A program made the translations under genes and the position numbers. Of a stretch of DNA of 64,000 nucleotides, positions 8,179-60,891 are shown piece by piece. This DNA is from a candidate division WOR-3 bacterium. GTDB taxonomy: Bacteria; Hydrothermota; Tepidihabitantia; SM23-42. The stretch lies in the NCBI GenBank assembly GCA_020353055.1, contig CP070686.1, forward strand, positions 638,965 through 702,964, given 5' to 3'. The notes beneath the pieces were generated by a model. It had not been told where the DNA came from and did not search any database. It saw nothing but the letters and a program-made list of their open reading frames with translations. How positions within the stretch are numbered: the first letter of the stretch is position 1; each line of letters begins with the position of its first letter.

Positions 8179-9243
8179 TTAGCCTGTCCTCGCTTTCATC
8201 GTCAGGAAATTGATGACGACCCTCATGAAATAATAGATATCAGTGGTAATAGGATGTTTTTTCCTCAATCTATAGTAGCGCCTCTCTGATTCAATTATCC
8301 CCTCAAACGTCTTCGGACAATCCGCATAATAAGGAGGTACGAACCCGGGTCTAATCGTCATACGTTCCTTGCGCCATTCTTCAGGGTATAGCTCAAGAAA
8401 TTCCTTGGATAAATGCCTCAGACCGATGAACGCCAAGTCGCCCTTCAGTATATTGAATAGTTGTGGCATTTCATCCAACCATAGTTTTCTCACCAGTCTT
8501 CCCCACGCCGGGACACGAAAATCATTGACTACCTTGCCATTATTGTCGATCACAAGACGATCAAGAACATAATCGTGAATGTAATTAGCATACGCATGCA
8601 TTGTTCTCAGTTTATAGCAGTATATCGGACGTCCGTCTAAGCCCTCCTTCTCTATCTTGATGAAAAGACCATCGCAGGGCTTGCCATTCATTAATACAGA
8701 GCTCTTTCTGGCCACAAAATAGAGCCTATTATCACACTCTTCTGTTGCCAGAATCTCAAACCCGCAGTAAACCAGTCTACCTAACGCCTCACATTTTGAC
8801 AGCATCCGGTGTTTATTTAATTTGAGAACTCTATAAACAGACCGTAAACCAAAAAGTCTCGGCATCAAACGCTTGAATATGAAGGCACCTAAAACCAGTA
8901 TCGCTGCAATGACACCGACGTTCTTAGAACGAATTCGATTTTGGAATTGGGTATATGTTTCAACATTGCCGATATAGATACCACGATCACTGAGCAACTT
9001 TCGGATATTCAATATGGCCTCATTGATATGTGTATAACTGTTTAGCGGCATTGTACTATATATACAATCGAATGAATCCCCGATCATATCATTATCTATG
9101 ACATTCGCATCACTAACAACCAACATGGCAGAATGACTCATGGCTACTCGCCTGAAATGTTTTCTGACCAGCGCGATGACCCTCTCTCCGAAGTTCTCTC
9201 GGAGAATTGACCTAAGGTCGTATTCCTTGATGATTAAATTCAT
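8179..9243 (-). CDS. Divergent bacterial sugar-transferase (phosphoglycosyl transferase-like) with an extra N-terminal cytoplasmic domain
   Basis: Carries KLRTM and LDEMPQLFNILKGDLAFIGLRHLS (GLR replaces the canonical GPRP), then RPGFVPP. A hydrophobic helix VGVIAAILVLGAFIF precedes the catalytic domain. The N-terminal roughly 110 aa are unassigned. Confidence 0.55.
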   Translation of the reverse strand: MNLIIKEYDLRSILRENFGERVIALVRKHFRRVAMSHSAMLVVSDANVIDNDMIGDSFDCIYSTMPLNSYTHINEAILNIRKLLSDRGIYIGNVETYTQFQNRIRSKNVGVIAAILVLGAFIFKRLMPRLFGLRSVYRVLKLNKHRMLSKCEALGRLVYCGFEILATEECDNRLYFVARKSSVLMNGKPCDGLFIKIEKEGLDGRPIYCYKLRTMHAYANYIHDYVLDRLVIDNNGKVVNDFRVPAWGRLVRKLWLDEMPQLFNILKGDLAFIGLRHLSKEFLELYPEEWRKERMTIRPGFVPPYYADCPKTFEGIIESERRYYRLRKKHPITTDIYYFMRVVINFLTMKARTG

Positions 9244-9248
9244 TGTGC

Positions 9249-11081
9249 TTAACTGTACCTTTCTGATAGATTATTCAACCACAATTCCAGATTGATCCAT
9301 TTCCAAATATCACGGGAAATATTGATCTTCCTTCGTAAATGCAGGTCATAGAGTTTGAGACACTTCCGGTAATCAACATATGGGCTTAGCCGAAAGGACG
9401 CTGAATGCATTATATCCATCACGTAAGTCTGAAAAACACTTTCTCTAAACCATTCATCTTCAGGTGTCATGAAACCAACTTTATCTTGGCGCCTAAGGAT
9501 CTCTTGAGGAACAATTTCTTGCATTGCTCTGCGTAGGATTGATTTGTTCTCACCAGCGTGAATGATCTCATTCGGGTTCAAGGCCAGCACACCCTCAACT
9601 ATCCTGTGATCCAAAAGCGGTACTCTCGATTCCAGTGAATACCACATTGAGTTTCTATCCTCCCATTTCAACAAGTGCTCCAGTTTGTATTCAAAATGAT
9701 TCAGCAGTGCATCGCGCAGTGAAGATGCATCAAATAATGTTGCGGCCAACCGAGTATTCCCAGCTTCTCGCTCGTAGAAACTCGGGTTCAGATAATTCCG
9801 GCCAACAAGTTTGGCACGTGATTTCACTGCATTGGGTAGAAGAAAATACAACAATGATTTAAAAGCATACAAAGATCGGTGCTTTCGGAAATAATGATAG
9901 ACTTCCTTCAAGAAGGTCAGTAAATGCATGTATGTCAGAAGTTCTCGATAGTAATTACCGAAGAAATAATGGTAACCACCGAGTATTTCATCTCCGCCCT
10001 GCCCATCCAAAAGGACTTTCACAGTTCCTCTGGCCAGTTGCATTACTTTAAACTGAGCATAGGGCCCCGTCGTAGCAACAGGTTCCTGTTGACAAGACAC
10101 GAACATATCCAGATCATCAAGAAGTGTGCGTACGGTCGGTGTGACCTTATGCATCCTGAAAACAGAATTGTCGAAGAGATCTATGTATTCTCCTTCATCA
10201 CCTACAACACCGGCACCGTACACGGCTGAAAAAGTATGCAAATCGTTCTTCTCAAGTATTCTTGTCATGATCGCTACGATACTCGAAGAATCCAGTCCCC
10301 CACTCAAACATACACCCACAGGCACGTCACTACGTAAGTGTATTCTGACCGAATCCGCAAGAAGATCTTTGAAATCCTTTGAAGACTTCAAAGTCGGCCT
10401 GATTTCTTCAGGTAATTTGTACCACCGGTGAAACTCAACATTGTGTCTGCTGACCTTTGCGTATTGACCATGCCCCAAACGCTTCACGCCGCTATAGAAG
10501 GTGTCATCGTATTGATCCGTACGATTATAGACCAAGTAATCGAAAATGACCGTATCGTTCGCCCCATACAAAGACGGAATCGTCTGCAGTACACCTTTAA
10601 TCTCAGATGCAAATACAAAAGTCGCATTATCACAATAATAATAAAGAGGCTTTATGCCAAATCGGTCGCGAACAAGAAATAACTCCCCTGTCTCGGTATC
10701 GTATATGGCAAATGCAAACATCCCGATGAATTTCTTTAAACATTCGATACCCCATTCAATAAATGAATAAAGCACTACCTCGGTATCAGTCCTTGAAACG
10801 AAGCGATACTTGCTATCCAATTCATTTCGCAATTCAAGATAATTATAAATCTCTCCATTGTGAATGATGCAGTAACGATTACTCTGATCAAACATTGGCT
10901 GCCGTCCTGCGGAAGTTAGATCGATAATACTCAATCTCATATGACCAAGCCCAACATTTTTATCGAGGTATAATCCTTCATCATCCGGCCCGCGATGTTT
11001 AACAGCAGACATCATGCGCTTTATTTGACTACTTTCAACTTTCTCCTGATTAAATGAATACATCCCTACTAAGCCGCACAT
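9249..11081 (-). CDS. Asparagine synthetase (glutamine-hydrolysing) family amidotransferase, WbpS-like
   Basis: Has the MCGLVG N-terminus (Cys2 nucleophile of class-II glutamine amidotransferases) and the PP-loop CLSGGLDSS, over about 610 aa. The ORF track extends to 11090 (MLDM...). The likely start is the Met-Cys at 11081. Confidence 0.8.
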   Translation of the reverse strand: MCGLVGMYSFNQEKVESSQIKRMMSAVKHRGPDDEGLYLDKNVGLGHMRLSIIDLTSAGRQPMFDQSNRYCIIHNGEIYNYLELRNELDSKYRFVSRTDTEVVLYSFIEWGIECLKKFIGMFAFAIYDTETGELFLVRDRFGIKPLYYYCDNATFVFASEIKGVLQTIPSLYGANDTVIFDYLVYNRTDQYDDTFYSGVKRLGHGQYAKVSRHNVEFHRWYKLPEEIRPTLKSSKDFKDLLADSVRIHLRSDVPVGVCLSGGLDSSSIVAIMTRILEKNDLHTFSAVYGAGVVGDEGEYIDLFDNSVFRMHKVTPTVRTLLDDLDMFVSCQQEPVATTGPYAQFKVMQLARGTVKVLLDGQGGDEILGGYHYFFGNYYRELLTYMHLLTFLKEVYHYFRKHRSLYAFKSLLYFLLPNAVKSRAKLVGRNYLNPSFYEREAGNTRLAATLFDASSLRDALLNHFEYKLEHLLKWEDRNSMWYSLESRVPLLDHRIVEGVLALNPNEIIHAGENKSILRRAMQEIVPQEILRRQDKVGFMTPEDEWFRESVFQTYVMDIMHSASFRLSPYVDYRKCLKLYDLHLRRKINISRDIWKWINLELWLNNLSERYS

Positions 11082-11082
11082 A

Positions 11083-12204
11083 TCAAGCAAAACGTAGTTG
11101 ATACAAAGGATTATTATTAATTATCGAAGCGCTCTCAGGATAACACTTCACGAACCAGATGAGGAATGCGGTGATATCAATCTTTTCTTTGAGCATACTT
11201 GCTCTCTTCTGTGCCCAAATCTCCCTTATATTTCTAATCCTCAATAATTGTAAAGCCTTTTGCTTTGCTGCATCAATGTCACGGATGTTGAAAATCAATC
11301 CGTACTCTTTCTCTAATTCAACAAAATTAGACATATCATACCGACCGACGAAAGTGTTACATCTAACAACTGGTGTCCCCAGAATTGCGGCTTCCGTAGC
11401 CATAGTTTGAGTATCAGTGAAAAGCAAAGATGCGTGGGCAAGCAAGAAATGAAGATGATTAGGATTACGTATTAACGTCGCCGGCAGTTCATCGTGCATA
11501 TCCTTTTCTGTAGAAACCAATACCTTGGCGAACCTGGATAAAACACTAAGTAGTTCTTTAACATAACCATCGCTGATCCCCGACACCCCTACATCATGAT
11601 ATGCATCCCAGGCATTTAATCGGACAATAACATAGATCTCGCCAGGTTGAATACCATAAGTGCCCAGCAAGTCTTTGCTTGCCGAGAACCTATGCGGATG
11701 CAAGTAGGCCAACTCCTTAAAGCTCTTCATGCGGATCTCTTTGTGCCCGAAGGAGCGTCTAAACCTCTCCGGAACGAGTACATGGCTTGTGAAAGGCACG
11801 TATGTCATCTGCTGAAGAGCTGTCACCTCATCATCTTCGAACATAATTGATGGTATTCCAAAGAGGAAGGAAGCCAATGAACCTGCGGTAGAACCGACGC
11901 CCAATACCATATCCGGACGAACTTTTCTGACTGCGTATGATATTCTCATCGTAGATATCAAATACTCGAATATCTTTCTGAGCATCGAGCGACGTTGAAA
12001 TGCAACCACCTGATATGGTGCGTCTAGATCTTCGAATAGTCTCTCAACGTTCTTGAATCTGCGAACCAGTACGTGAATATCTGCGGTATTCTTTAATTCA
12101 CGAATGACATTCTTAAAGAAATGAAAGTGGGCCTGAGTCCAGATTACAAAGACATATTTCTTTCTTGCAGAAATCGATTCTCCGGTAGCCGTGGAACACC
12201 TCAC
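11083..12204 (-). CDS. DUF354-family GT-B-like protein, the common partner of UDP-GlcNAc 2-epimerase
   Basis: N-terminus KYVFVIWTQAHFHFFKNVIRELKNTADIHVLV matches the DUF354 signature (KIWIDxxNxPHVxFFKxIIxELxxxGHEV). It sits directly adjacent to wecB. Confidence 0.5.
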   Translation of the reverse strand: MRCSTATGESISARKKYVFVIWTQAHFHFFKNVIRELKNTADIHVLVRRFKNVERLFEDLDAPYQVVAFQRRSMLRKIFEYLISTMRISYAVRKVRPDMVLGVGSTAGSLASFLFGIPSIMFEDDEVTALQQMTYVPFTSHVLVPERFRRSFGHKEIRMKSFKELAYLHPHRFSASKDLLGTYGIQPGEIYVIVRLNAWDAYHDVGVSGISDGYVKELLSVLSRFAKVLVSTEKDMHDELPATLIRNPNHLHFLLAHASLLFTDTQTMATEAAILGTPVVRCNTFVGRYDMSNFVELEKEYGLIFNIRDIDAAKQKALQLLRIRNIREIWAQKRASMLKEKIDITAFLIWFVKCYPESASIINNNPLYQLRFA

Positions 12205-12256
12205 TTTTTCATCTGAATCATGCTATGACGATAATATTCTCGCTTACCACTCGATG

Positions 12257-13477
12257 CTAGTCTATATCACTGCTGGTTCTCACCTGGGCAAGCAATTTGA
12301 CAATTCTCGCAGCAGCCTTGCCATCTCCTAAAACATGATCATCAGCATTTATGCCTTCTTGATTTTGCTTGTTGAGCGATCCTATGGCGCTGGCAACACT
12401 CTGACTTTGCACACCTCCGATTTTCATTGAATCATATTCGAGCAATTCTACCCACTCGGTCTCCTCACGTAGAACAACACACGGAACACCCAGTAAGAAT
12501 GCTTCTCGCTGCACACCACCTGAATCCGTCAGCACTACTGCGGAATTTTTTTCAAGTACGAGCATGTCACAGTAACTAACAGGATCTGTGAATCTGACAC
12601 GCGAATCATCCAGATGATATCCCCCCTGTCGACGCAGGACATTTTGCGTCCTCGGATGCACAGGGAAGAGAATCGGCTTCTTGTCATCAATGTCGTGGAG
12701 CGCATCGATGATACTTTTTACTCTGGTTGGATCATCCGTATTCTCGGCTCTGTGGATCGTCACCAGATAGTACCCTTTTGGCTCCAGAGCGAATTCATCC
12801 AATATTCTGGATTTTTTTTCGGCAACGCCCATGCTCATCAACAGGCTATCGTACATGACGTCTCCAACATTGATGACAACCGGTATCTGTTCCCGGGATA
12901 AAGGAATATTAGTGTCCTGAACGCCGATAAGCGCACCATTATTCAGGATCTCGACAAATCCTTCGTTACGGAGGTTTGAAATAGCAGTTCCGGTCGGGCA
13001 AAAAAGAAAATCTGCGCAGTGGTCGGTCAGCACTCGATTGATTTCCTCCGGCATGGAACGAACAAAACTTCTCAGTCCAGCTTCAATATGAGCCAGGGGA
13101 TAATGCAACTTAGCAGCGGCAAGAGCACCTGCAAGCGTCGTATTCGTATCACCGTACACGAGCACCACATCGGGTTTTTCGTCAAGCAAAATCTTTTCGA
13201 CACGCGCCAACATCTTTCCCGTTTGCCAACCGTGCGGGCCTGACCCCACGCCCAGATAGAAATCAGGTTTCGGGAGTTCTAAATCATCGAAAAAGATCCT
13301 ATTCATCTTGAAGGAATAGTGCTGTCCGGTGTGCACGACCTTATGCGATATGACTCTGTTTTCAGTCAATGAGTTATGTTCTGCAATTGCTCTTATGATG
13401 GGTGCAAGCTTAACGAACTGCGGACGGTTTCCGATCACGCTCAGTAATTTCATCTTTTCCATCGGCACTTTCTCCAA
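12257..13477 (-). CDS. wecB: UDP-N-acetylglucosamine 2-epimerase (non-hydrolysing), WecB family
   Basis: Carries HTGQHYSFKMNRIFFDDLELPKPDFYLGVGSG, VYGDTNTTLAGALAAAKLHYPLAHIEAGLRSF and MPEEINRVLTDH. Confidence 0.85.
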   Translation of the reverse strand: MEKVPMEKMKLLSVIGNRPQFVKLAPIIRAIAEHNSLTENRVISHKVVHTGQHYSFKMNRIFFDDLELPKPDFYLGVGSGPHGWQTGKMLARVEKILLDEKPDVVLVYGDTNTTLAGALAAAKLHYPLAHIEAGLRSFVRSMPEEINRVLTDHCADFLFCPTGTAISNLRNEGFVEILNNGALIGVQDTNIPLSREQIPVVINVGDVMYDSLLMSMGVAEKKSRILDEFALEPKGYYLVTIHRAENTDDPTRVKSIIDALHDIDDKKPILFPVHPRTQNVLRRQGGYHLDDSRVRFTDPVSYCDMLVLEKNSAVVLTDSGGVQREAFLLGVPCVVLREETEWVELLEYDSMKIGGVQSQSVASAIGSLNKQNQEGINADDHVLGDGKAAARIVKLLAQVRTSSDID

Positions 13478-14457
13478 AGATAGAACATCGTAATCGCCGT
13501 TTTGTACTTGCCAGGTTGATGAATCTTTTCAAAGCGGCCGAAATTCAAAATCGCTCCTCCGAATTTCTGTTTGAATCTGCGAACCCCGTAATCTTTATCG
13601 GGGCTGCCTGCTCCGCCAAAATCAAAGGTCGAATAACCGTTAGCCTTTCCCCATTTGAAAACTTCCCAGGGCAGTATGTCGTTGGGGTACTTTCTCAGAA
13701 ATTCGAACCGACTTCCCGCATACCAGTCATATAACAAGTCTTTGTACGCCAGAATGCAGATCACGCCGATGAGTTTATCGTCAATGAAGGCACCAAAGTA
13801 TCTGATCATCTGGTGAGGGCCGAGTACTCTGAAGGCCCCTTGAAACATTGTCTTGTCGGCCAGTGGCAATCCAGCTTGAGCATAGACTCCTTTCAGGATT
13901 TCGTAAGAAGTATCGATATCATCCTTTCCATCCAGTTCACGTACTTTCACCCCCTCCTTGTAAGCCTTCCTGATCTCGTTGCGTCTCTTTGAATGCATTT
14001 CATCCCATAATGACTGTTCTGATTTTGTTAAATCGATGATTATATTCAGGTGATCCTTATACGAATACTTTAGTTCAAGAAAATTTGGCTGCAACTTGTC
14101 AATATCCCAGAGGTTACGGAATTGGGTGTATAACGCCCTCGCCCGTATCTCCTTCTCATAGGCACGGAGTAACAAAGCAAGAATGTTAAGGTCGTCGTGT
14201 GCGACAAGGGGGCCCCCCCATACCACCGAACGTGTGGTTAGTCCGCCTAACGGACCGTCAAACTCCCGCAGTAAAACGGCAACTAATAACCCCTGAACAG
14301 CCCCGTTATCACTTACGACGGCAAATAGCAACGGCTCATTGTGTTTAGTGTTACTGTAGACATCATACATTTCCGGTGTCTGAAAGATATTCCCTTTAGG
14401 ATGATCACGAACGAAATCTGACCAGATCTGCCGATCTAATTTATTGACGATATTCAT
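13450..14457 (-). CDS. FemAB-family / GNAT-fold (Acetyltransf_6-like) aminoacyl- or acyl-transferase, resembling the exosortase-locus FemAB-like proteins
   Basis: 335 aa. The motif SLWDEMHSKRRNEIRKAYKEGVKVRE is the FemAB / BioF2-like hallmark (KRRNxIRKA). Size and context fit the PEP-CTERM-associated FemAB-like family. Confidence 0.5.
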   Translation of the reverse strand: MNIVNKLDRQIWSDFVRDHPKGNIFQTPEMYDVYSNTKHNEPLLFAVVSDNGAVQGLLVAVLLREFDGPLGGLTTRSVVWGGPLVAHDDLNILALLLRAYEKEIRARALYTQFRNLWDIDKLQPNFLELKYSYKDHLNIIIDLTKSEQSLWDEMHSKRRNEIRKAYKEGVKVRELDGKDDIDTSYEILKGVYAQAGLPLADKTMFQGAFRVLGPHQMIRYFGAFIDDKLIGVICILAYKDLLYDWYAGSRFEFLRKYPNDILPWEVFKWGKANGYSTFDFGGAGSPDKDYGVRRFKQKFGGAILNFGRFEKIHQPGKYKTAITMFYLWRKCRWKR

Positions 14458-14523
14458 CGGATACTTATCATCTGTCGACCTGACAAGAGTACTTAGCGTA
14501 ATCAGACAATGCTATGATAAGAC

Positions 14524-15294
14524 TCATAACCACTTGCGGCGCTTTACTAATACCCGTTTACCGAGATTCTTCACATTTTGCCAGACCAATTCCTCAAACC
14601 ACCGAAGGTAATCGTCATTCCACCGGTGTGGATGTGCATTCACCATTATCTGATCCGGTAATGCATTTCTACGAACGGCGGCAACAATGTCTGTTGTCTT
14701 CCTTAGATCGTGGCCGATTGCTGAATCCACTTTGTCTCTAACGTTAGTGTTGTCACTATTCCAGCGTCGACCTGTATCAGTCAGATAAAGCATCCGACGA
14801 AAATCAATGTCAAGATATGGTTCTCCAACAATCCCCAATTTCCGATAGTTGTGTCTCTGCCAGAGTGAACGATTATCCCATCTCGATAAAGGGCTGCCGT
14901 GCATGCAGATCGTCCTAACTGAACTTAGTGCTCTTAATTTCTCCAGGTTGTCCATAAAACTGATGATGGCCTTTGTGTAGTCGCCGTCTGCACGGGAAAG
15001 ATCCTCGTAGTGATATCCTATCTCATGACCCATCCTGTGTATATCACGTATGACATCCTCGTCATAGCAGGAGCCTACGCATCTGAAATAGTAGCTTGCT
15101 TTGATGCCCATTTTCTGCTCGCAACGTGCCATTGTTACGGCGGTATGCGGTCGCCTATCGACATCGTGACGCATCAGAACCCGTTTGCGACTTGAGTTCG
15201 CAGACCAGTAATCGACAACCGGCACAAACTCGTAACCGTTTGCCAAAAATTCAATACAAAGATTTTCGTAGCAGCGTAATGTAAAATCGCGCAT
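14524..15294 (-). CDS. Polysaccharide deacetylase / deformylase family protein (CE4, ArnD-like)
   Basis: N-terminal LMRHDVDRRPHT resembles the xIDVDTxRG motif of ArnD-type NodB-fold enzymes. About 256 aa. Several His/Asp-rich motifs (HEIGYHYED, CMHGSP). Confidence 0.4.
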   Translation of the reverse strand: MRDFTLRCYENLCIEFLANGYEFVPVVDYWSANSSRKRVLMRHDVDRRPHTAVTMARCEQKMGIKASYYFRCVGSCYDEDVIRDIHRMGHEIGYHYEDLSRADGDYTKAIISFMDNLEKLRALSSVRTICMHGSPLSRWDNRSLWQRHNYRKLGIVGEPYLDIDFRRMLYLTDTGRRWNSDNTNVRDKVDSAIGHDLRKTTDIVAAVRRNALPDQIMVNAHPHRWNDDYLRWFEELVWQNVKNLGKRVLVKRRKWL

Positions 15295-54002: not shown

Positions 54003-54950
54003 CTAAGGTAGGAGCTCTTTCTTCCTATAATAGTAGAGCAACTTCTCGATCAACTTACGGTTGTCAGCTATCAGATCTGCAACTATTCCAAGGAGGAAGA
54101 GTATGAAGGAAATGATAACCAGTATGGCAGCGAAGATCAGCGATTGTATGTGGCCTGTCGCTTGCTCAGGTATCAGTATGAAGAAATACAAAAAACGTAA
54201 TCCAAGCAGGAGACCTGGGACTAGAAATAGGAAACCGAGATATGTGAACGTCTTCAAAGCCTTATACATCGCGTAAGATCTTATTATTGTCTGAATTTGA
54301 CTGGCCATGAAGTGAAGAGTTCCCCTGTGCAATCTTGATGCTCTTAACGGAACATTAGTGCCCACGGGGACAGATATCACTCTGAACTTTTCAGCACCCA
54401 ACTGAATAAGATTCTCGACCGTATAGGAAAACTCACTCATAATATTGATCCGCATTGCAGATTCCCTTGAATAAGCCCTAAAGCCGCTTACCGCATCACT
54501 TATATCTACATTTGATAACCGCCTCACCAGCGCACTGCCGACTTTTTGAAGCAACTTTTTCGAAGGCGAGAATGTCGATATCCTGCTTGTCTGTCTGTCA
54601 CCGATGACGATATCAGCCTCGTGGTTTAGAATGGGTTTAACTAGTCTGGGGATATTCTCACCACTATACTGATTATCCGCATCGGTATTGACAATTATGT
54701 CTGCGCCCAACTCCAGGCACTTTTCTATGCCTGCTGCGAACGCCCGTGCCAAACCCCTGTTATACTTGAAAGAAAGAATATGTTGAACCCCATTCTGCCG
54801 TGCAACTTCAACCGTACGGTCGGTACTGCCATCATCGATGACCAAGATTTCAATCTCATGAATACCCGGGATACTCGCGGGTAGATCATCCAGTGTCTCT
54901 TTTAAACACTTCTCCTCGTTGTAACAGGGTATTTGTATTATCAATTTCAT
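54003..54950 (-). CDS. Polyprenyl-phosphate glycosyltransferase-like GT2 (DPM1/ArnC-like) with C-terminal TM helices
   Basis: MKLIIQIPCYNEEKCL...LVIDDGSTDRT...NTDADNQY. Two hydrophobic helices at the C-terminus. Confidence 0.75.
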   Translation of the reverse strand: MKLIIQIPCYNEEKCLKETLDDLPASIPGIHEIEILVIDDGSTDRTVEVARQNGVQHILSFKYNRGLARAFAAGIEKCLELGADIIVNTDADNQYSGENIPRLVKPILNHEADIVIGDRQTSRISTFSPSKKLLQKVGSALVRRLSNVDISDAVSGFRAYSRESAMRINIMSEFSYTVENLIQLGAEKFRVISVPVGTNVPLRASRLHRGTLHFMASQIQTIIRSYAMYKALKTFTYLGFLFLVPGLLLGLRFLYFFILIPEQATGHIQSLIFAAILVIISFILFLLGIVADLIADNRKLIEKLLYYYRKKELLP

Positions 54951-55053
54951 ACAAGATCCTAATACTGACTTACTTTTTAGCTTTGATAAAGCAATCTCAC
55001 AGAAGATGTCGCCTTACTGGAGATCCCCAGACCAAATCACCCGGTGCCGTAAT

Positions 55054-56736
55054 CTACTTGATCTCTACAACTCGCTCTTCCTGCTTTGTATACCTGCGCG
55101 AACATTTTCGGCACACCGCGCCATTGTCGCCAAATGTCAATTTGTTCCCGCATTCGCACACCCAGCCGATGTGCTTAGCCGGTACCCCAGCCACGATCGC
55201 ATAGTCGGGAACATTATGTTTGACCACTGCTCCGGCACCAACAAGAGCACAGCGGCCAATCGTAACTCCACAGATGATCGTCGAATTAGCCCCGATCGAT
55301 GCTCCCTCTTTGACAAGTGTTGGAACCCATTTACCGAATTCCGGGTAGAGCCGCTTCGGGTATCTGGCGCGCGGGTTGATATCATTGGTAAACGCCGCTG
55401 ACGGGCCGACAAATACATAGTCTTCCAATGTTACTAAATCCCAGACATCTATGTTGGATTCAAGTTTCACCCCATTTCCCAGACGTGCCTTCGAACCAAC
55501 AAAACAGTTGTGCCCGATTATGCAGTTCTCACCGATTTGAGCTCCGGCTTGAACCTGCGCGTTATTCCATATCTTACTTCCTCGGCCGATCCTCGCCTTA
55601 TCAGCAACAATAGCGGTCGGATGTACAGAAACGTCTTCGCGCAGCGCTCGAGCGCTTTTCTTCGTATCGAACGTGACTTTGAGACCATTGTTGTTAAGCG
55701 AATTCTGTGCACTATAGAGAAACGTAAGCACGTTCAACCCTTCTTGGCCATCGGTATAAGGAGTCCATCCGTTCTCTATACACTCGATGAAATGCTGGCA
55801 TTCCAGTCTCAACGGCTCCTCCATCTGGACTGGAACAACCTCGGCATCCGCCTTGCGTGCTATCGGAGCGCGGTTTTGCCATTCGATCTTGTGTGGGTAC
55901 AGGAAGAGTTTCTCGGTTGTCAGGTCATCAAACACCGCCATTTTACGATCGCCGACTACGACCAGTTTCTGCTCTTTATACGGATGCAACCATGAGACAA
56001 ATATATGGCACTGCACACCGCTCGGAAAATCCATCGTCGTAAGAGTGACGTCAGCGATCCCTTTCTGAACATACGTGCCGCCGATGGCAGACAGCGAACT
56101 CGGTTGCTCGTTGAGTAGATAAAGAATCACCGAAATATCATGTGGGGCAAAACTCCAGAGTATATTCTCAGCATCCCTAATCTTACCGATATTCAACCGG
56201 TTTGAATAGATATACTGTATCTTGCCCAGTTCACCATTATCGACTAGTTCCTTCAGTTTATTCATCGCCGGATGGTACCGCAGAACGTGCCCGACCATTA
56301 TCACACGCTCGTTATCCTCGGCCAGTTTAATAAGCTCTTCAGCCTCCTCGACCTTCAACGCAAGAGGCTTCTCGACAAACAGATGCCGCTTGGCAGCGAG
56401 CACTTTCTTCGACAATTCGTAATGGCTCTTTGCTGGTGTTGCTACAACCACGCCATTGATCTCCGGGTCATTCAGAATATCATCAAGCGATTCTGTGCAA
56501 TTAATGTTAGGATAAGTGACCCTGCACGACCTCACGCTACTCGAATTGACATCGCAAACGGCTCTTAAGACACCAAGTTGGGCAAAATTGCGTACTAGAT
56601 TCTTACCCCAGCCGCCCATACCTACGACACCGATGCGCGCTGGCGTGCGCTGATCCAAAGTCGCATATTGTGCGCTGCTTTCACGTATCGTGTGTTCTAC
56701 ATTCTCCGCCATATTGACACCCCCTAATCCCTTCAA
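55054..56736 (-). CDS. Bifunctional Gfo/Idh/MocA oxidoreductase (WbpB-like) fused to hexapeptide N-acetyltransferase (WbpD-like) with C-terminal CxC...CxxC zinc-ribbon tail
   Basis: N-terminal half: [18 protein letters not shown] and FVEKPLAL. C-terminal half: hexapeptide repeats [40 protein letters not shown]. Tail [24 protein letters not shown]. Confidence 0.75.
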
Positions 56737-56836
56737 ATTTCACATATGATTATTATATAATGTACACAAGTCCCCTTTCAACGAGAAAACATTATCTGGG
56801 TTTCTCATTGCAAGTATACAATGAAACATATACATA

Positions 56837-57955
56837 TCAGTTGTTATAAAATTCTCTGACACATTTGATTACGTACTCGACTTCAGTATCCGTTAGATCC
56901 TGCTGAATGGGCAATGAAAGGACTTCGGCTGCGGCCTTTTCCGCGATTGGAAAGTCACCTACTTTGTAGCCGAGATACTTAAACGCTGGTTGCACATGTA
57001 AGGGAACCGGATAATGAATTGCAGTTGCTATGCCTTTCTCATTGAGATATTTTGCCAACTCATCCCGTCTTGCTGCTCTGATCGTATACTGGTGGTATAC
57101 GGATTCATTATCTTCCCTAATAAAGGGCGTGGCCACAACATCTCTCAGGGCATCGTCATATTTCTTGGCAATACGGCGCCTTTGTGCGTTCCAGTTGTCG
57201 AGATACTTCAATTTTATTCTGAGAAATGCTGCCTGCATTGCGTCAAGGCGGTCATTATGCCCCAAAAAATCATGGTGATATTTCTTAGACGCTCCGTGAA
57301 CACGGTAAGCCCTGATCTTAGTAGCAAGATTCCCATCATTGGTCAGGATCATGCCGGCATCTCCGAGCGCATTGAGATTCTTGGTAACATAGAAACTGAT
57401 ACAAGCAGTATCGCCGAAATTACCAACCATTTGTCCATTGTATTTTGCACCAATGGCCTGCGCCATATCTTCGATCACCTTCAGTCTGTGATCCTGAGCA
57501 ACACGCATTATCCTCGTCATATCAGCTGCCTGGCCGTATAGATGGACCGGCATAATAGCCCTGGTACGGGCTGAAACACATTCCTTTATGCTGCCTGCGT
57601 CGATATTGAATGTTTTCCGATCAATATCACAGAAAACAGGTTTGGCACCGACCAGAGCGATAACCTCTGCCGTCGCCACGAAAGTAAACGGAGTCGTTAT
57701 GACCTCATCGCCCGGTCCGATACCCAACGCCCTCAGTGATAGCAGGAGAGCATTAGTGCAATTCGACACACCTATTGCGTGTTTGGTTTTGGCATATGAA
57801 GCTATCTCTTCTTCGAATTTCCTCACCTCATCACTGAGAATGAATTTATTGCTATCCAAGACTCTCTCAAACGCTTGCATCAAGTCATTCTTTATAGGTT
57901 TGTGCTGCCGTTCAAGATCTATGAATGGAACCTTCATGAACCTCCTTTCAACCAT
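56837..57955 (-). CDS. DegT-family aminotransferase (WbpE-like UDP-2-acetamido-3-oxo-uronate aminotransferase)
   Basis: MKVPFIDLERQHKPIKNDLMQAFERVLDSNKFILSDEV...VSNCTNALLLSL. Confidence 0.8.
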   Translation of the reverse strand: MVERRFMKVPFIDLERQHKPIKNDLMQAFERVLDSNKFILSDEVRKFEEEIASYAKTKHAIGVSNCTNALLLSLRALGIGPGDEVITTPFTFVATAEVIALVGAKPVFCDIDRKTFNIDAGSIKECVSARTRAIMPVHLYGQAADMTRIMRVAQDHRLKVIEDMAQAIGAKYNGQMVGNFGDTACISFYVTKNLNALGDAGMILTNDGNLATKIRAYRVHGASKKYHHDFLGHNDRLDAMQAAFLRIKLKYLDNWNAQRRRIAKKYDDALRDVVATPFIREDNESVYHQYTIRAARRDELAKYLNEKGIATAIHYPVPLHVQPAFKYLGYKVGDFPIAEKAAAEVLSLPIQQDLTDTEVEYVIKCVREFYNN

Positions 57956-58180
57956 CCTCTAATATATTCCTTAGAAACATCATCAAATCACACAACCCTA
58001 AGGCAACATTCAATGCCTCATCTCAAGAACACCCTGGCTCTATCAAGGATGTCTGGACAGGCTACCGCCCTTGTCAGACGCGGACAATTCAGGTTGTACG
58101 GCGGCGAAAATGTACTTCGCACAGCCATCGTCCGTTTTCTGACCACCTGAGGCATGATAGAAGAGCCTTAAGTGTATCAT

Positions 58181-58228
58181 TATGCTAAAAGAAAAGTTAT
58201 CAGCGGTCACCAAAACATTTTGACCGCT
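58181..58228 (-). terminator. Candidate intrinsic terminator/attenuator between wzc and the downstream biosynthetic genes
   Basis: Stem AGCGGTCA/TGACCGCT (8 bp, 58202-58209 and 58221-58228) with an 11-nt loop. On the minus strand it is followed 7 nt later by CUUUUCUUUU. It lies in the 310-nt gap between wzc (stop 58267) and the DegT gene (start 57955). Confidence 0.35.
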
Positions 58229-58266
58229 ATCAGATATCTATCAAAAGAGCAATGACCCATTTCCCT

Positions 58267-60891
58267 TCAACCGGTTTTGTAATACTTTGAATAGTGCCTA
58301 TAATAATTATCGTAGTAGTAGCTTCCCCTCTCTTTGGGAGCGCCATTCAACACTACACCGAGAATATCGGACTTTGCACTGATCAATATATTATTGGCAA
58401 CATCAAGCGTGTTCAACGTCGTCCTACCGTACCTTGCGGTGAGGATCACGCCGTCCGCAAACGTAGCGAGATAACTGGCATCTGCAAACAGAAGCAATGG
58501 GACACCGTCAATTATTATGTAATCATACTCCTTTCTTAAACTGGCCACCAACTTCTTCATGGCCTCTGACTCAAGAAACACAAAGGGGTTTGGAGGGACT
58601 TTACCAAGAGGCAAAAGGTCAATTTTAGATTTGCTTTCTCTTGCCGCACTCCTGTGACCGGAGCCAAACGGCAACGTCACATCCTGGGGTTCAACTGAGC
58701 CCATCAGGATATCGAACAAGCCGAGTTCCTTTTTTAACTTAGTCACTGCGGTAAGATGCCCCGATGTTTTTCTGAAATCGGTATCGATCATCAAAATGCT
58801 CTTACCCATGCTGCCGATTACCTGACCGAGGTTAAGCGCAACAAATGTCTTACCTTCTTCGGGACCAGCCGAGGTCACGTACAAAACCCTGTACTTCTTG
58901 TAGGGATGGATAAAATCGAGACTGACTGCCAGTTTCCGAAATGATTCAAACTCTGGCGAGGAGATATCCGTACGCAGCAACTTGAGAGGCTCAGGGTGAT
59001 TCGCATTCATCTTGTTCCGCCTTACCCTCCTCCACAACGCCATCAACCCTGTTTCATTGAGCATATGTTCAAACTCGCTAATCTTCTTCTCATCGCCGAT
59101 CAAAGGAATCGTTTCAAGCAGGATTATACCCAATCTATTCGTTATTTTATCAGGGTCCTTGATGGTATTATCAAGGTAATCGGCCGCCAAAACAGCCAGC
59201 GCGCCTCCGAACGCAGCAATTGCCATGGCAAAGATGACACCTCTGATCCTGCCCCGCCCATTGACTGGTGAAGATGACACCATCGGGGGATTAATGATCT
59301 TCAAATCAGATGTCACACCCGCTTCCTGAACCCGTGTTTCTTGCAATCTTTCGGACAAAGTCAGGTATGTTTTCTCGGCCGTTTCTCGGTCCCGCTCAAG
59401 CCTGGCAAGACTGACCTCTTCAAGTGGCACGTTATCGAGTCTCGCCTGCAGAATCCTGATCTGACGATTATAACCATCTATCTCTGATCCTACGGCAGAG
59501 GTACGTTTGAGAACTTCTTCATTAAGTAGTTCTACAAGACCGTCCAATCTCGCCTGTATTTCCCTTACTTTTGGATGATTCGATGAATATTCCCTTAACT
59601 TTCCTTTGAGTTCGGCTTCTGTCTGCAGAAGATCAGAATACAATGCTCGTAGAGATACATCGGAAAGCATCGTCATCCCAAAATCCGGTATGGTATCACC
59701 AAAAGCCGCAGGATTAGCTAAATAGCCGATAAGGTCCTGCATCACTTTCTGTTCGATCTCAAGCAGGCTCTTTCTCGACTGTAGTTCTGACACCTGTGAT
59801 ATCAATTCCTGCGTTGAAGCCTCAAGGTTTGATATAGACTTACGCTCTTTAAATCTCCTGACCTGTTCTTCCAGGTCGGTAAGTAGGTTCTTACTAATAA
59901 TCAGTTGGGAGTCGATAAAAGCCTTCGATTGAGTGAATTGCTGTGATTTCTCCTCCCGGTTCTCCATAAGTAACTGTTCTGAAAGGGAATTGGCTATGCG
60001 GAGCGCGTCCTGGGGGTTCCCCCAGTGCACATCAATCCTCAGGATACCAATTAGATTCATCCCGGGAAATATAGACTTTGCTACAACAGGAGGGTCAGAA
60101 GCACCTTCACCAGAAAAGGGTATGTTTGAGCCGGAAAAACCATCGTCAATTTTGTCCGCATCAAGCACCTTTATCGACAGAGAATTTCTCAAGGCCAATG
60201 CTAAACTCTCCTTCGGATATATCATGAGCCGGTAGTGCTTGTTCAACGGCTTCCCGTGTACTGATGTAATTCTCAATTCACAGATGCCCGCATCGATATA
60301 CTCATCAAGCAAACCCTCGGCGATTTTCTCATCGCCGTTGAATACCGTAATTAAACCGTAGACACTATCCTCTGCCCGACTGCCGTCCCTATAAATAGAC
60401 ACCGGGACATCGTCTATCACAAGCCTCAGAGGTCCAAATGGCTCGGATATTCTCTTTTTCATGATGGCATCGACCCTCAAATCTGAACCGCCATCATCGA
60501 CATAAGTAAACAGGGATAGATCCTCGATAACCTTCTCAGCAAGATTAACGCTTAGAAGACTCGTTATAGCCCGTTGTGTAACCGAGCCAATAACTGTAGG
60601 CAACTCCGCACCGCCAGGTCCGGGAAAAACAGCATCCAAAGGTTTTTCATTTACAACACCCACGTCAAATGTAGCGCGGAAAATTGGACTGTATGATCTT
60701 AGAAAGCTGTTGACTGCGAACCACAGGAAAACCGGCACGAAAATATAAAGAAACAGCCGCTTCCTTCTAAGGAATTTATTGACTACCTCATGAATATCTA
60801 ACGGCTTTTCCTCGGGCTCGCCATAGGTAAGATTAGTATCTCCCTTCTTCTGCAACCGCCTGTTTATATAACTGCTCATCAACCTCCCCAT
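58267..60891 (-). CDS. wzc: Polysaccharide co-polymerase / BY-kinase (Wzc-like chain-length determinant fused to tyrosine kinase)
   Basis: 874 aa. The N-terminal Wzz-like region has a TM helix and coiled coils. Walker A VTSAGPEEGKT, A' ILMIDTDFRKT, Walker B YIIIDGVPLL. C-terminal Tyr cluster ERGSYYYDNYYRHYSKYY. Confidence 0.85.
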   Translation of the reverse strand: MGRLMSSYINRRLQKKGDTNLTYGEPEEKPLDIHEVVNKFLRRKRLFLYIFVPVFLWFAVNSFLRSYSPIFRATFDVGVVNEKPLDAVFPGPGGAELPTVIGSVTQRAITSLLSVNLAEKVIEDLSLFTYVDDGGSDLRVDAIMKKRISEPFGPLRLVIDDVPVSIYRDGSRAEDSVYGLITVFNGDEKIAEGLLDEYIDAGICELRITSVHGKPLNKHYRLMIYPKESLALALRNSLSIKVLDADKIDDGFSGSNIPFSGEGASDPPVVAKSIFPGMNLIGILRIDVHWGNPQDALRIANSLSEQLLMENREEKSQQFTQSKAFIDSQLIISKNLLTDLEEQVRRFKERKSISNLEASTQELISQVSELQSRKSLLEIEQKVMQDLIGYLANPAAFGDTIPDFGMTMLSDVSLRALYSDLLQTEAELKGKLREYSSNHPKVREIQARLDGLVELLNEEVLKRTSAVGSEIDGYNRQIRILQARLDNVPLEEVSLARLERDRETAEKTYLTLSERLQETRVQEAGVTSDLKIINPPMVSSSPVNGRGRIRGVIFAMAIAAFGGALAVLAADYLDNTIKDPDKITNRLGIILLETIPLIGDEKKISEFEHMLNETGLMALWRRVRRNKMNANHPEPLKLLRTDISSPEFESFRKLAVSLDFIHPYKKYRVLYVTSAGPEEGKTFVALNLGQVIGSMGKSILMIDTDFRKTSGHLTAVTKLKKELGLFDILMGSVEPQDVTLPFGSGHRSAARESKSKIDLLPLGKVPPNPFVFLESEAMKKLVASLRKEYDYIIIDGVPLLLFADASYLATFADGVILTARYGRTTLNTLDVANNILISAKSDILGVVLNGAPKERGSYYYDNYYRHYSKYYKTG

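What the first reader, a model, noticed from the sequence alone, without database searches (positions are those of the whole stretch)
8179..60891. Uninterrupted 52.7-kb, 42-gene single-strand glycan locus headed by wzc, with two Wzx, one Wzy, two phosphoglycosyl transferases and no Wza in the window
Every ORF from 60891 down to 8179 is on the minus strand. Gaps are at most about 310 nt and often overlap by 4-30 nt. The block ends at a strong bidirectional terminator (8085-8120). It combines two initiating-transferase-like genes (8179-9243, plus the stand-alone canonical one at 2222-2878), two MOP flippases and a single Wzy-like polymerase. This suggests either two glycans assembled from one operon or a very large repeat unit. 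A Wzc-type co-polymerase normally works with a Wza/OPX outer-membrane exporter, and none is recognisable in 64 kb. For an FCB-type cell envelope the export route is therefore open. The TPR/beta-rich exported protein at 6396-8048 is the only nearby candidate.
Basis: partly seen in the sequence, partly recalled or inferred. Interest (0 to 1): 0.6.

Follow-up and report, generated by a model that had tools for sequence, protein, structure and literature searches.

The report
Giant variable surface-sugar gene cluster
This is a real, unusually long (42 genes, 52.7 kb, one strand) but otherwise ordinary gene cluster for building a variable cell-surface polysaccharide in an uncultured WOR-3 bacterium, and the outer-membrane exporter that seemed to be missing is encoded elsewhere in the same genome.

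Summary
There are 42 consecutive minus-strand ORFs from 60891 to 8179, with gaps of at most 311 nt, ending at an 11-bp GC hairpin. Nearly all match glycan-synthesis families. The block starts with a true Wzc and holds two Wzx, one Wzy-like protein and ten Leloir glycosyltransferases.

The host is a candidate division WOR-3 MAG. Relatives keep the flanks (82-94% identity) and the head genes. The tail genes diverge (34-55%) and the middle is replaced. This is a hypervariable, serotype-like glycan locus at a conserved site, about twice the size of a relative's.

No Wza is in the window. However, the same genome encodes a 228-aa Wza directly upstream of a second Wzc paralogue, so the export route is not open.

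The TPR protein at 6396-8048 is predicted to be a 12-stranded outer-membrane barrel with periplasmic TPRs. It stays next to the small phosphoglycosyl transferase in distant relatives, and its paralogues head the wza operon. That makes it a lead, not proof.

One consensus promoter precedes wzc. A WOR-3-specific leader element with an ops-like core follows wzc.

Verdict: a new member of a known kind, of moderate interest.

The parts
61008..61035 (-). Consensus sigma-70 promoter TTGACA-16-TATAAT, 117 nt upstream of the first ATG of wzc
   Evidence: 12/12 match. The promoter and the following leader are the conserved part of an otherwise divergent intergenic region in four related loci.
61500..61808 (+). 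Divergent ArsR/HTH_5-type regulator, a conserved partner of wzc
   Evidence: Pfam HTH_5/HTH_20. 90-93% identical and in the same position in L003, L004 and L010.
58267..60891 (-). Gene 1: Wzc (PCP-2a co-polymerase with BY-kinase); likely start at 60879
   Evidence: GNVR and AAA_31. Matches E. coli Wzc structures over residues 481-866 at E 1e-32. Two predicted TM segments and a Tyr-rich C-terminal tail.
58059..58077 (-). Leader element CTGACAAGGGCGGTAGCCT; it contains GGCGGTAGCCTG, which fits the E. coli ops consensus
   Evidence: Unique in the window, expected 0.03. It is a conserved island in related loci. The exact 19-mer is almost confined to WOR-3 genomes.
56837..57955 (-). Gene 2: DegT-family sugar aminotransferase (start 57937)
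   Evidence: PF01041 at E 4e-126. 85% identical in relatives.
55054..56736 (-). Gene 3: GFO/IDH/MocA sugar 3-dehydrogenase fused to a hexapeptide N-acetyltransferase (WbpB/WbpD-like)
   Evidence: UDP-GlcNAc 3-dehydrogenase model, 176 bits, below its cut-off.
54003..54950 (-). Gene 4: GT2 glycosyltransferase
52870..53976 (-). Gene 5: radical SAM/SPASM enzyme
51702..52844 (-). Gene 6: UDP-GlcNAc 2-epimerase-like protein
   Evidence: PF02350. WecB model 163 bits, below its cut-off of 210.
50563..51702 (-). Gene 7: GT4 glycosyltransferase
49586..50566 (-). Gene 8: SDR sugar epimerase/dehydratase
48385..49509 (-). Gene 9: GFO/IDH/MocA oxidoreductase
46946..48385 (-). Gene 10: Wzx flippase no. 1
   Evidence: Polysacc_synt_3 and Polysacc_synt. 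About 15 hydrophobic segments.
45804..46949 (-). Gene 11: radical SAM enzyme
44318..45658 (-). Gene 12: GT-C fold (PMT_2/ArnT-like) membrane glycosyltransferase
   Evidence: PF13231, 30.2 bits against a cut-off of 26.1. 9 hydrophobic segments.
42803..44272 (-). Gene 13: Wzy-like polymerase (or ligase)
   Evidence: Wzy_C, 36.7 bits against a cut-off of 31.7. 11 hydrophobic segments. 38% identical to a 499-aa protein in L004 and L010.
41857..42828 (-). Gene 14: GT2 with two hydrophobic segments (polyprenol-phosphate sugar synthase-like)
40822..41817 (-). Gene 15: flippase-like membrane protein (LPG_synthase_TM)
   Evidence: PF03706 at E 5e-33. TIGR00374, 58 bits against a cut-off of 43.
38911..40788 (-). 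Gene 16: second GT-C (PMT_2) membrane glycosyltransferase
37722..38831 (-). Gene 17: DegT aminotransferase (PseC/ArnB-like)
   Evidence: 82-84% identical in L004 and L010.
36769..37725 (-). Gene 18: GT2 glycosyltransferase
   Evidence: 67-69% identical in L004 and L010.
36197..36841 (-). Gene 19: hexapeptide acyltransferase
34668..36293 (-). Gene 20: Wzx flippase no. 2
   Evidence: 13 hydrophobic segments.
33492..34658 (-). Gene 21: GT4 glycosyltransferase
32216..33484 (-). Gene 22: GT4 glycosyltransferase
31204..32226 (-). Gene 23: NDP-sugar 4,6-dehydratase (LegB-like)
   Evidence: 354 bits, below the cut-off of 475.
30169..31155 (-). Gene 24: SDR, LegB-like
29010..30206 (-). Gene 25: class-V PLP enzyme (cysteine desulfurase-like)
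28198..28965 (-). Gene 26: sugar-1-phosphate nucleotidyltransferase
27211..28182 (-). Gene 27: SDR epimerase
26034..27206 (-). Gene 28: LegC-family aminotransferase
   Evidence: TIGR04181, 470 bits against a cut-off of 420.
24652..25983 (-). Gene 29: nucleotide-sugar 6-dehydrogenase
   Evidence: TIGR03026, 376 bits, above its cut-off.
23457..24671 (-). Gene 30: GT4 glycosyltransferase
22393..23460 (-). Gene 31: GT4 glycosyltransferase
21047..22396 (-). Gene 32: PaaK-like adenylate-forming ligase
   Evidence: No Pfam hit. NCBIfam CoA-ligase models at E 5e-29, below their cut-offs.
20056..21060 (-). Gene 33: polysaccharide deacetylase
   Evidence: 55% identical in L009.
18231..20054 (-). Gene 34: degenerate AsnB-like protein
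16333..18204 (-). Gene 35: AsnB-like amidotransferase (weak match)
   Evidence: 42% identical in L009.
15335..16336 (-). Gene 36: GT4 glycosyltransferase
   Evidence: 52% identical in L009.
14524..15294 (-). Gene 37: conserved 256-aa protein with no family match
   Evidence: 50% identical in L009.
13450..14457 (-). Gene 38: FemAB-like aminoacyl/acyl transferase
12257..13477 (-). Gene 39: UDP-GlcNAc 2-epimerase
   Evidence: PF02350 at E 1e-99.
11083..12204 (-). Gene 40: DUF354 (GT-B-like) protein
   Evidence: 34% identical in L009.
9249..11090 (-). Gene 41: glutamine-dependent AsnB-type amidotransferase
   Evidence: TIGR01536, 435 bits against a cut-off of 267.
8179..9243 (-). Gene 42: divergent PglC-like phosphoglycosyl transferase with an extra N-terminal region
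   Evidence: Bac_transf match over profile positions 35-138 of 179 only. KLRTMH and DEMPQL are kept, GPRP is replaced by GLRH. 55% identical and in the same terminal position in L009.
8085..8110 (.). Bidirectional terminator hairpin: 11-bp GC-rich stem with a 4-nt loop
6396..8048 (+). Conserved neighbour: predicted 12-stranded outer-membrane barrel, then a transthyretin-like domain, then periplasmic TPRs
   Evidence: AF2 model, pLDDT 84.6. The Foldseek hits to outer-membrane barrels include NanC and a KdgM-type porin. Paralogous to the barrel-OmpA proteins next to wza. Adjacent to the small PGT in L011 and L018.
5955..6371 (+). DUF6982 protein; probably co-transcribed with the barrel-TPR gene
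   Evidence: 11/12 promoter at 5904-5931. 93% identical in L009.
2222..2878 (-). Canonical small (PglC-type) phosphoglycosyl transferase in the conserved flank
   Evidence: Bac_transf, full length, E 1.5e-55. 82% identical in L009 and 54% in L011.

Best explanation
The block is the hypervariable, serotype-like surface-heteropolysaccharide locus of a diderm WOR-3 bacterium, and it works by the Wzx/Wzy-dependent route.

Proposed pathway (inferred from family assignments):
- Cytoplasmic enzymes make unusual nucleotide sugars. These are 2,3-diamino uronic acids (WbpB/E/D-like), a LegB/LegC-type 4-amino-6-deoxy sugar and uronic acids.
- About ten Leloir glycosyltransferases build a repeat unit on a polyprenyl-phosphate carrier. 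A PglC-type transferase starts it.
- AsnB-, FemAB-, PaaK-like, deacetylase and radical-SAM enzymes tailor it.
- Wzx flips it across the inner membrane.
- A GT2 + flippase-like + GT-C module adds single-sugar branches in the periplasm.
- Wzy polymerises it under the control of the Wzc encoded at the head of the locus.

Export across the outer membrane most likely uses the Wza encoded elsewhere in the same genome, in a barrel-OmpA/wza/wzc2 operon.

Transcription most likely starts at the single consensus promoter upstream of wzc. It then runs through a conserved leader element after wzc to the terminator at 8085-8110.

Shown here: gene content, synteny, the Wza elsewhere in the genome, and the promoter and element pattern. 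Inferred: the chemistry, a single transcript, and sharing of Wza in trans.
For: - Gene content.
- Wzc identity: alignment to E. coli Wzc structures, two TM segments, Walker motifs and a Tyr-rich tail.
- Organism and envelope: the Wzc is 100% identical over the full 870 aa of a protein of a WOR-3 MAG. The first WOR-3 isolate has inner and outer membranes (PMC12285271).
- Variable locus at a fixed site: flanking genes are 82-94% identical to those in L009 and L010, head genes 64-86%, tail genes 34-55%. The middle genes have no close counterpart there apart from genes 17-18. The relative's wzc and barrel-TPR gene both fit on one 39-kb contig.
- A closer relative (L003) shares genes 1-10 in order.
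- In a more distant relative the flank genes lie within 9 kb of each other, with no wzc locus between them.
- Wza elsewhere: P0132 is on the same 2,688,392-bp contig. Its contig from the same sample reads barrel-OmpA, IVP, wza, then a Wzc paralogue (845/848 identical to P0043). Its model has a confident C-terminal helix at 203-227.
- Transcription: every flanking transcription unit has a 10-12/12 consensus promoter in its upstream gap. Among the 41 internal junctions there is only one such hit, and it is not conserved in relatives. No internal gap holds a canonical terminator.
Against: - No transcript data exist. A 52-kb single transcript is only inferred from the lack of consensus promoters and terminators, and non-consensus promoters would be missed.
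- Two Wzx with only one Wzy fits a single polymer imperfectly.
- Pairing between the window's Wzc and the distant Wza is untested. That Wza already has its own adjacent Wzc, which is only 48% identical to the window's.
- The Wzy_C family also contains O-antigen ligases.
- Most sugar-pathway assignments score below the curated equivalog cut-offs.
- The complete genome could not be read, so other exporters, Wzb and WaaL were not checked.
Confidence: 0.6

Rival explanations
1. The block is two glycan pathways joined end to end. A wzc-to-wzy part (genes 1-16) makes a polymerised capsule or EPS. A wzx2-to-PGT part (genes 17-42) makes a second lipid-linked oligosaccharide that is flipped by the second Wzx. 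That second product would either not be polymerised or be attached elsewhere, for example to lipid A-core or to proteins.
For: There are two Wzx of different ancestry. Wzx1 is 69% identical, over the 111 of 479 residues that L003 covers, to the L003 copy. Wzx2 is only 28-32% identical to the single Wzx of L004 and L010. There are two phosphoglycosyl transferase-type genes in the window. The relative's locus is roughly half the size and has one Wzx and one Wzy-like gene, so the window's locus looks like a merger of modules. There are also twelve glycosyltransferases, counting the GT-C enzymes.
Against: There is only one Wzy_C protein and no second co-polymerase or ligase. No promoter or terminator separates the two halves. 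The head and tail genes that bracket the whole block are the same ones that bracket the relative's single-Wzx locus. The GT-C/GT2/flippase-like module already explains extra membrane steps.
Confidence: 0.25
2. The product is an O-antigen-type chain ligated to lipid A-core and carried out by the Lpt pathway, so no Wza is needed. The Wzy_C protein or a distant gene would act as the ligase.
For: Wzy_C (PF04932) is the O-antigen ligase family. No Wza is in the locus. Variable loci at a fixed chromosomal site are typical of O-antigen loci. The WOR-3 isolate carries some LPS genes.
Against: The locus is headed by a PCP-2a Wzc with an intact BY-kinase domain and tyrosine tail, not by a PCP-1 Wzz. That is the hallmark of capsule/EPS systems that use an OPX. 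The genome does encode a Wza.
Confidence: 0.1
3. The 42 genes are several independent operons that merely share a strand, driven by internal promoters that do not resemble the sigma-70 consensus.
For: An 11/12 promoter-like site lies 16 nt before gene 3. The leader element after wzc is preceded by a 12/12 promoter where it occurs in other genomes, so a weak promoter may persist here. A hairpin followed by a T-rich tract lies just after wzc. The gaps of 100-311 nt could hold regulatory sites.
Against: The gene-3 site is absent from all relatives examined. The best promoter match upstream of the element in the window is 9/12. Most junctions overlap or are shorter than 50 nt. No internal gap has a canonical terminator.
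Confidence: 0.2

Closest known systems
E. coli group 1 capsule (K30) cps locus and Wzx/Wzy-dependent EPS loci in general
   Same: It has a PCP-2a Wzc with a BY-kinase and tyrosine tail, Wzx, Wzy, a phosphoglycosyl transferase, and a serotype-specific block of glycosyltransferase and sugar-pathway genes on one strand.
   Different: There is no wza or wzb beside wzc. Wza lies at a separate locus with its own Wzc paralogue. The locus has 42 genes and 52.7 kb, two Wzx, and added GT-C, radical-SAM, AsnB and FemAB tailoring genes.
Myxococcus xanthus EPS/BPS/MASC pathways and the OPX class scheme (PMC9603273)
   Same: The assembly and export genes are split between loci. There are several Wza/Wzc paralogue sets per genome. 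Outer-membrane barrel genes lie near OPX genes.
   Different: The WOR-3 Wza is very short (228 aa, one SLBB) but is predicted to keep a C-terminal helix, unlike the class 3 proteins of Myxococcus. The neighbouring barrels are about 12-stranded and fused to OmpA or TPR modules, not 18-stranded PgaA-like porins.
Bacteroides capsular polysaccharide loci
   Same: Both are long, single-strand, highly variable glycan loci in the FCB group, each read from one upstream promoter.
   Different: No UpxY/UpxZ-type genes and no invertible promoter were seen. The window uses canonical sigma-70 promoters and Shine-Dalgarno sites.
RfaH/ops (JUMPStart) and the Bacillus eps-associated RNA
   Same: The conserved element sits on the sense strand of the leader of a long glycan operon. 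Its core GGCGGTAGC equals positions 1-9 of E. coli ops (PMC5995543). Its position directly after the co-polymerase/kinase gene parallels EAR, which lies between epsB and epsC (PMC10653937).
   Different: The element also heads acyl-CoA dehydrogenase/ETF operons. The pause-inducing TG of ops is not conserved in the related copies. No NusG paralogue could be looked for. There was no Rfam match.
XrtA/PEP-CTERM exosortase-associated EPS loci
   Same: The tail genes best match the amidotransferase, FemAB, deacetylase and sugar-transferase models of that system.
   Different: All scores are far below the curated cut-offs, and no exosortase was found in the window.

Membership tests
Wzx/Wzy-dependent capsule/EPS assembly system | PCP-2a co-polymerase: two TM segments, a periplasmic coiled-coil domain, a cytoplasmic BY-kinase with Walker A/A'/B motifs and a C-terminal Tyr cluster | tested here: met
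   Aligns to E. coli Wzc residues 358-713 at E 1e-32. Motifs GPEEGKT, DTD and IIIDGVP are present, with the tail YYYDNYYRHYSKYY.
Wzx/Wzy-dependent capsule/EPS assembly system | Wzx (MOP-family) flippase | tested here: met
   Two copies, each matching Polysacc_synt_3 and Polysacc_synt above the cut-offs.
Wzx/Wzy-dependent capsule/EPS assembly system | Wzy polymerase | tested here: inconclusive
   One Wzy_C hit just above the cut-off (36.7 against 31.7 bits) with 11 hydrophobic segments. The family also includes ligases.
Wzx/Wzy-dependent capsule/EPS assembly system | Initiating polyprenyl-phosphate phosphoglycosyl transferase | tested here: met
   A full-length Bac_transf protein at 2222-2878. 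Gene 42 is divergent: the Asp-Glu dyad is kept, but it scores 75 bits against a cut-off of 296.
Wzx/Wzy-dependent capsule/EPS assembly system | OPX (Wza) exporter encoded with wzc | tested here: not met
   None in the window. It is present elsewhere in the same genome next to a Wzc paralogue.
Wzx/Wzy-dependent capsule/EPS assembly system | Cognate phosphotyrosine phosphatase (Wzb or PHP type) | tested here: not met
   No LMWPc or PHP hit among the 42 genes of the block and the flank ORFs that were scanned. The rest of the genome could not be read.
XrtA/PEP-CTERM-associated EPS system | Exosortase, plus equivalog-level matches to the system's accessory proteins | tested here: not met
   No exosortase hit in the window. 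TIGR03108, TIGR03019 and TIGR03013 score 364, 69 and 51 bits against cut-offs of 817, 260 and 393.
RfaH/ops antitermination | 12-nt ops (GGCGGTAGnnTG) on the non-template strand of the leader | tested here: inconclusive
   There is one exact match in the window. Across the related copies, GCGGTAGC and usually the preceding G are conserved, while positions 10-12 vary.
RfaH/ops antitermination | A specialised NusG paralogue in the genome | not testable with these tools
   The genome is not readable here. A tblastn with a remembered E. coli RfaH sequence hit only distant, non-WOR-3 loci.
GfcD/YjbH outer-membrane proteins | A match to the YjbH family and a double-barrel architecture | tested here: not met
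   The window protein has no YjbH hit, and its model has one barrel of about 12 strands. 11 of 56 family members hit YjbH weakly, best E 4e-9, so only a distant relation to the N-terminal barrel is possible.
Synthase-dependent TPR/beta-barrel exporters (PgaA, BcsC, PelB) | N-terminal periplasmic TPRs followed by a 16-18-stranded C-terminal barrel, encoded with a processive synthase | tested here: not met
   The domain order is reversed and the barrel has about 12 strands. No synthase is adjacent.

The most novel reading that the evidence does not exclude
WOR-3 bacteria may use two lineage-specific devices for surface glycans.

(1) A promoter-proximal leader element, CTGACAAGRGCGGTAGCYT, with an ops-like core. 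It marks both this biosynthetic operon (after wzc, kept even where its promoter has decayed) and the separate barrel-OmpA/wza/wzc2 export operon. It would act during elongation to carry RNA polymerase through very long operons.

(2) A small family of 12-stranded outer-membrane barrels fused to periplasmic TPR or OmpA modules. These stay linked to the initiating transferase and to wza, and would form part of the export or anchoring apparatus together with an unusually short Wza.
Probability: 0.2. Interest if true: 0.6.

Novelty: new member of a known kind. Interest (0 to 1): 0.35.

Why it matters
WOR-3 has a single cultured isolate and its cell surface is uncharacterised. This locus shows that the phylum carries a fast-evolving, serotype-like polysaccharide locus at a fixed chromosomal site, which is the pattern that drives phage and predator escape in well-studied bacteria. 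The core export genes sit in a separate conserved operon. That gives a marker for strain typing in metagenomes. It also gives a set of unusual tailoring enzymes (radical SAM, AsnB, FemAB, GT-C) and two testable leads on transcription and export. The original puzzle of a missing exporter is resolved.

Tried and rejected
- Source genome: a scan of genome contigs with Wzc peptides gave no relative. Exact-protein look-ups of the end-of-window epimerase and of P0043 failed. Only short Logan fragments of the source genome could be read.
- RNA genes: the Rfam and tRNA scans of the window were empty.
- PEP-CTERM/exosortase membership: rejected on scores.
- The 11/12 promoter before gene 3: rejected as a conserved feature.
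- A hairpin directly after the leader element (nut- or terminator-like): rejected. Mean MFE was -9.2 against -8.6 for shuffles over 46 copies.
- Glycan specificity of the element: rejected, because it also heads acyl-CoA dehydrogenase/ETF operons.
- An RfaH-like gene near the WOR-3 loci: none found (the query was recalled from memory, so this is only a lead).
- The hairpin after wzc is not a canonical terminator, because the T-run starts 6 nt after the stem. No counterpart is evident by eye in the L003 gap.

Full report
**Observation.** The ORF list shows 42 consecutive minus-strand ORFs from 60891 down to 8179. Spacing between neighbours runs from a 97-nt overlap to a 311-nt gap. The plus-strand ORFs inside the block all overlap minus-strand genes that have strong family matches. 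The block ends at a perfect 11-bp GC-rich hairpin, AGAGGCCCCCG-TGAA-CGGGGGCCTCT (8085-8110). It is A-rich on one side and T-rich on the other, so it could terminate transcription from both directions. GC content is even across the block, 0.41-0.48. The window holds no tRNA genes and no Rfam families.

**Gene content.** Pfam and NCBIfam scans give the order below, in the direction of transcription.
- Gene 1: Wzc.
- Genes 2-3: a DegT aminotransferase, then a GFO/IDH/MocA dehydrogenase fused to a hexapeptide acetyltransferase. This is the WbpB/E/D theme for 2,3-diacetamido uronic acids.
- Genes 4-10: GT2, radical SAM/SPASM, a 2-epimerase-like protein, GT4, SDR, a GFO oxidoreductase and Wzx1.
- Genes 11-16: radical SAM, GT-C (PMT_2), Wzy_C, a GT2 with two hydrophobic segments, a flippase-like LPG_synthase_TM protein (TIGR00374, above its cut-off) and a second GT-C.
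- Genes 17-20: DegT, GT2, a hexapeptide acyltransferase and Wzx2.
- Genes 21-22: two GT4.
- Genes 23-28: two LegB-like SDRs, a class-V PLP enzyme, a nucleotidyltransferase, an SDR and a LegC-family aminotransferase (above its cut-off).
- Genes 29-31: an NDP-sugar dehydrogenase and two GT4.
- Genes 32-42: a PaaK-like adenylating enzyme, a deacetylase, two degenerate AsnB-like proteins, GT4, an unknown 256-aa protein, a FemAB-like protein, a UDP-GlcNAc 2-epimerase, DUF354, a strong AsnB amidotransferase and a divergent phosphoglycosyl transferase.

That set is the usual arrangement for adding single sugars in the periplasm from polyprenyl-phosphate donors (established knowledge of the Gtr/Arn-type systems).

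**Key proteins.**
- Gene 1 is a genuine PCP-2a. It aligns to solved E. coli Wzc structures over residues 481-866 (E 1e-32). It has two hydrophobic segments, Walker motifs and a tyrosine-rich tail.
- Gene 42 keeps the KLRTMH and DEMPQL motifs, including the Asp-Glu dyad that aligns with PglC. It replaces GPRP with GLRH and carries about 190 extra N-terminal residues. It scores far below the curated cut-offs.
- The protein at 2222-2878 is a full-length small transferase.

**Organism.** The Wzc is 100% identical over the full 870 aa of a protein from a candidate division WOR-3 MAG that has a 2,688,392-bp contig. The only cultured WOR-3 strain has inner and outer membranes (PMC12285271), so an outer-membrane export step is needed.

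**The missing Wza.**
- No Poly_export protein is in the window, either by Pfam or by tblastn at E<=1.
- The same genome has a second Wzc paralogue, P0043, which is 48% identical to the window's.
- Its 75%-identical orthologue in another WOR-3 genome lies two genes downstream of a 229-aa Poly_export+SLBB protein, with one small IVP gene between them.
- A search with that protein returned P0132 (228 aa), which is on the same 2,688,392-bp contig.
- P0132's contig from the same sequencing sample reads barrel-OmpA protein, a small IVP protein, wza, then a Wzc that is 845/848 identical to P0043.
- The P0132 model has a signal helix, the export and SLBB domains, and a confident C-terminal helix at 203-227. 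It has no Wza_C Pfam match.

The genome therefore has a canonical wza-wzc pair elsewhere. The window's Wzc heads the variable biosynthetic locus without its own Wza. Sharing of that Wza in trans is the simplest reading, but it is inferred.

**Comparative structure.**
- A 75%-identical Wzc (L003) is followed by orthologues of genes 2-10 in the same order.
- Two 64-65% relatives (L004, a complete WOR-3 chromosome, and L010) share the divergent ArsR-type regulator (90-93%), wzc and genes 2-3. After that their content differs. They have a Wzy-like gene, orthologues of genes 17-18, a FemAB-like gene, one Wzx and an AsnB.
- At the other end, L009 keeps the flank in the same order: the small transferase (82%), a PKD/T9SS protein, DUF6982 (93%) and the barrel-TPR protein (84%).
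- L009 also keeps the tail genes 33, 35, 36, 37, 38, 40 and 42, but at only 34-55% identity.
- The relative's wzc and barrel-TPR gene sit on one 39,067-bp contig. Its locus is therefore roughly half the size of the 52.7 kb seen here.
- In a more distant relative (barrel-TPR 50% identical), the flank genes tautomerase, epimerase, barrel-TPR and small transferase lie within 9 kb of each other, with no wzc locus between them.

Highly conserved flanks, a semi-conserved head and tail, and a replaced middle are the signature of a hypervariable surface-glycan locus at a fixed site.

**Transcription.** This genome uses textbook promoters. TTGACA-16-TATAAT matches of 10-12 out of 12 sit in the upstream gap of every flanking unit. 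A 12/12 site lies at 61035-61008, 117 nt before wzc. That promoter and its leader are the conserved part of the regulator-wzc intergenic region in four loci. Among the 41 internal junctions, only one intergenic match of 10/12 or better exists (before gene 3), and it is absent from relatives. No internal gap holds a canonical terminator. This supports one main transcript but cannot prove it.

**Leader element (found in passing).**
- The 311-nt gap after wzc contains CTGACAAGGGCGGTAGCCT. This includes GGCGGTAGCCTG, the only match to the E. coli ops consensus in the window (expected 0.03).
- It is an island of conservation in otherwise divergent gaps.
- Allowing up to two mismatches, it occurs 10 times in 2.1 Mb of fetched sequence, against about 0.16 expected from my own count. 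All copies are on the sense strand. Nine lie upstream of DegT genes, and one heads a barrel-OmpA/wza/wzc operon.
- An exact scan of 185,579 species' genomes found 40 stretches. Of these, 28 were named WOR-3, Stahlbacteria or TA06 DG_78, 8 were unnamed MAGs and 4 were unrelated organisms.
- In most WOR-3 copies an 11-12/12 promoter starts 65-165 nt upstream.
- The copies that lie after wzc, or directly ahead of a DegT gene as in L112 where the upstream gene was not identified (window, L003, L013, L016, L112), have no such promoter. The element is therefore retained without its promoter, which argues that it acts during elongation or in the RNA.
- It is not glycan-specific. A recurrent downstream operon encodes three acyl-CoA dehydrogenases and an ETF subunit.
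- Its core equals ops positions 1-9, which include the bases needed for RfaH recruitment (PMC5995543). Its position after the kinase gene parallels the Bacillus EAR element (PMC10653937).
- No downstream hairpin is conserved. No NusG paralogue could be sought in the source genome.

**The TPR protein.**
- The AlphaFold model (53 sequences, pLDDT 84.6) shows about 12 strands over residues 34-266, a transthyretin-like domain and C-terminal TPR helices.
- The Foldseek hits to outer-membrane barrels include a KdgM-family porin and NanC (TM about 0.55 on the target), as well as OmpA and PorV.
- The barrel family is small: 105 clusters among 1.84 billion representatives.
- Of 56 members, 28 end in OmpA, 22 end in TPRs, and 11 hit YjbH weakly.
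- The window protein is 28% identical to the barrel-OmpA protein next to wza in its own genome.
- It is adjacent to the small transferase in three different arrangements at 50-84% identity.

This is a conserved genetic link to the pathway. An OmpA-like structural role is equally possible, and the predicted helix on Wza makes a separate porin unnecessary.

**Verdict.** The locus is a large new member of the Wzx/Wzy/Wzc class in a poorly known phylum. The leader element and the barrel family are the more novel leads.

Noticed in passing
window 58059-58077 (minus strand); also L003, L005, L013, L015-L018, L021, L093-L132: A 19-nt leader element, CTGACAAGRGCGGTAGCYT, has an ops-like core. It is almost confined to WOR-3 genomes and usually lies 65-165 nt downstream of the start of a perfect TTGACA-16-TATAAT promoter. 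It heads glycan, wza/wzc and acyl-CoA dehydrogenase/ETF operons. In many copies an upstream GGTCAG could pair with its CTGAC.
   Followed up: partly
window 60892-61100 (minus strand); L003, L004, L010: The wzc promoter and 5' leader contain blocks conserved across four loci: GATGACTTAAGTTTAA upstream of -35, then GAGAATTAAGTATAGT, CTGTCGCC, GTAAAAGC and CACGAGGTGTC. A CTTAAG motif recurs in the gap after wzc. These may be operator sites for the divergent ArsR-type regulator.
   Followed up: no
window 57956-58266: The gap after wzc is strongly structured (MFE -95.6 kcal/mol over 311 nt). It holds an 8-bp hairpin, AGCGGTCA...TGACCGCT, followed by a T-rich tract. No counterpart is evident by eye in the L003 gap.
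   Followed up: partly
L007 559-6204; L005 3410-12592: WOR-3 genomes have a separate conserved export operon. It holds one or two barrel + CarboxypepD_reg + OmpA proteins, small 23S_rRNA_IVP-family proteins flanking wza, a 228-aa Wza and a second Wzc.
   Followed up: partly
window 3148-5472 (minus strand): A PKD-domain protein with a type IX secretion C-terminal sorting domain sits between the small transferase and the barrel-TPR operon. It is far less conserved (43%) than its neighbours (82-93%).
   Followed up: no
window 62054-62251 and 62752-63867 (minus strand); L010 342-5812: A tautomerase and a highly conserved UDP-GlcNAc 2-epimerase lie upstream of the regulator. In a relative they are preceded by GT4, GT4-WecG and SDR genes, so a second, conserved glycan cluster probably continues beyond the window's end.
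   Followed up: no
P0041 (homologue of the window's Wzc): One Wzc homologue (1144 aa, 50% identical) carries an N-terminal TPR extension.
   Followed up: no
L021 300-570: The leader upstream of the element in this locus contains tandem repeats of about 38 nt (GGTGGTAACATCCGCCACTCCTTTTGGCGG).
   Followed up: no
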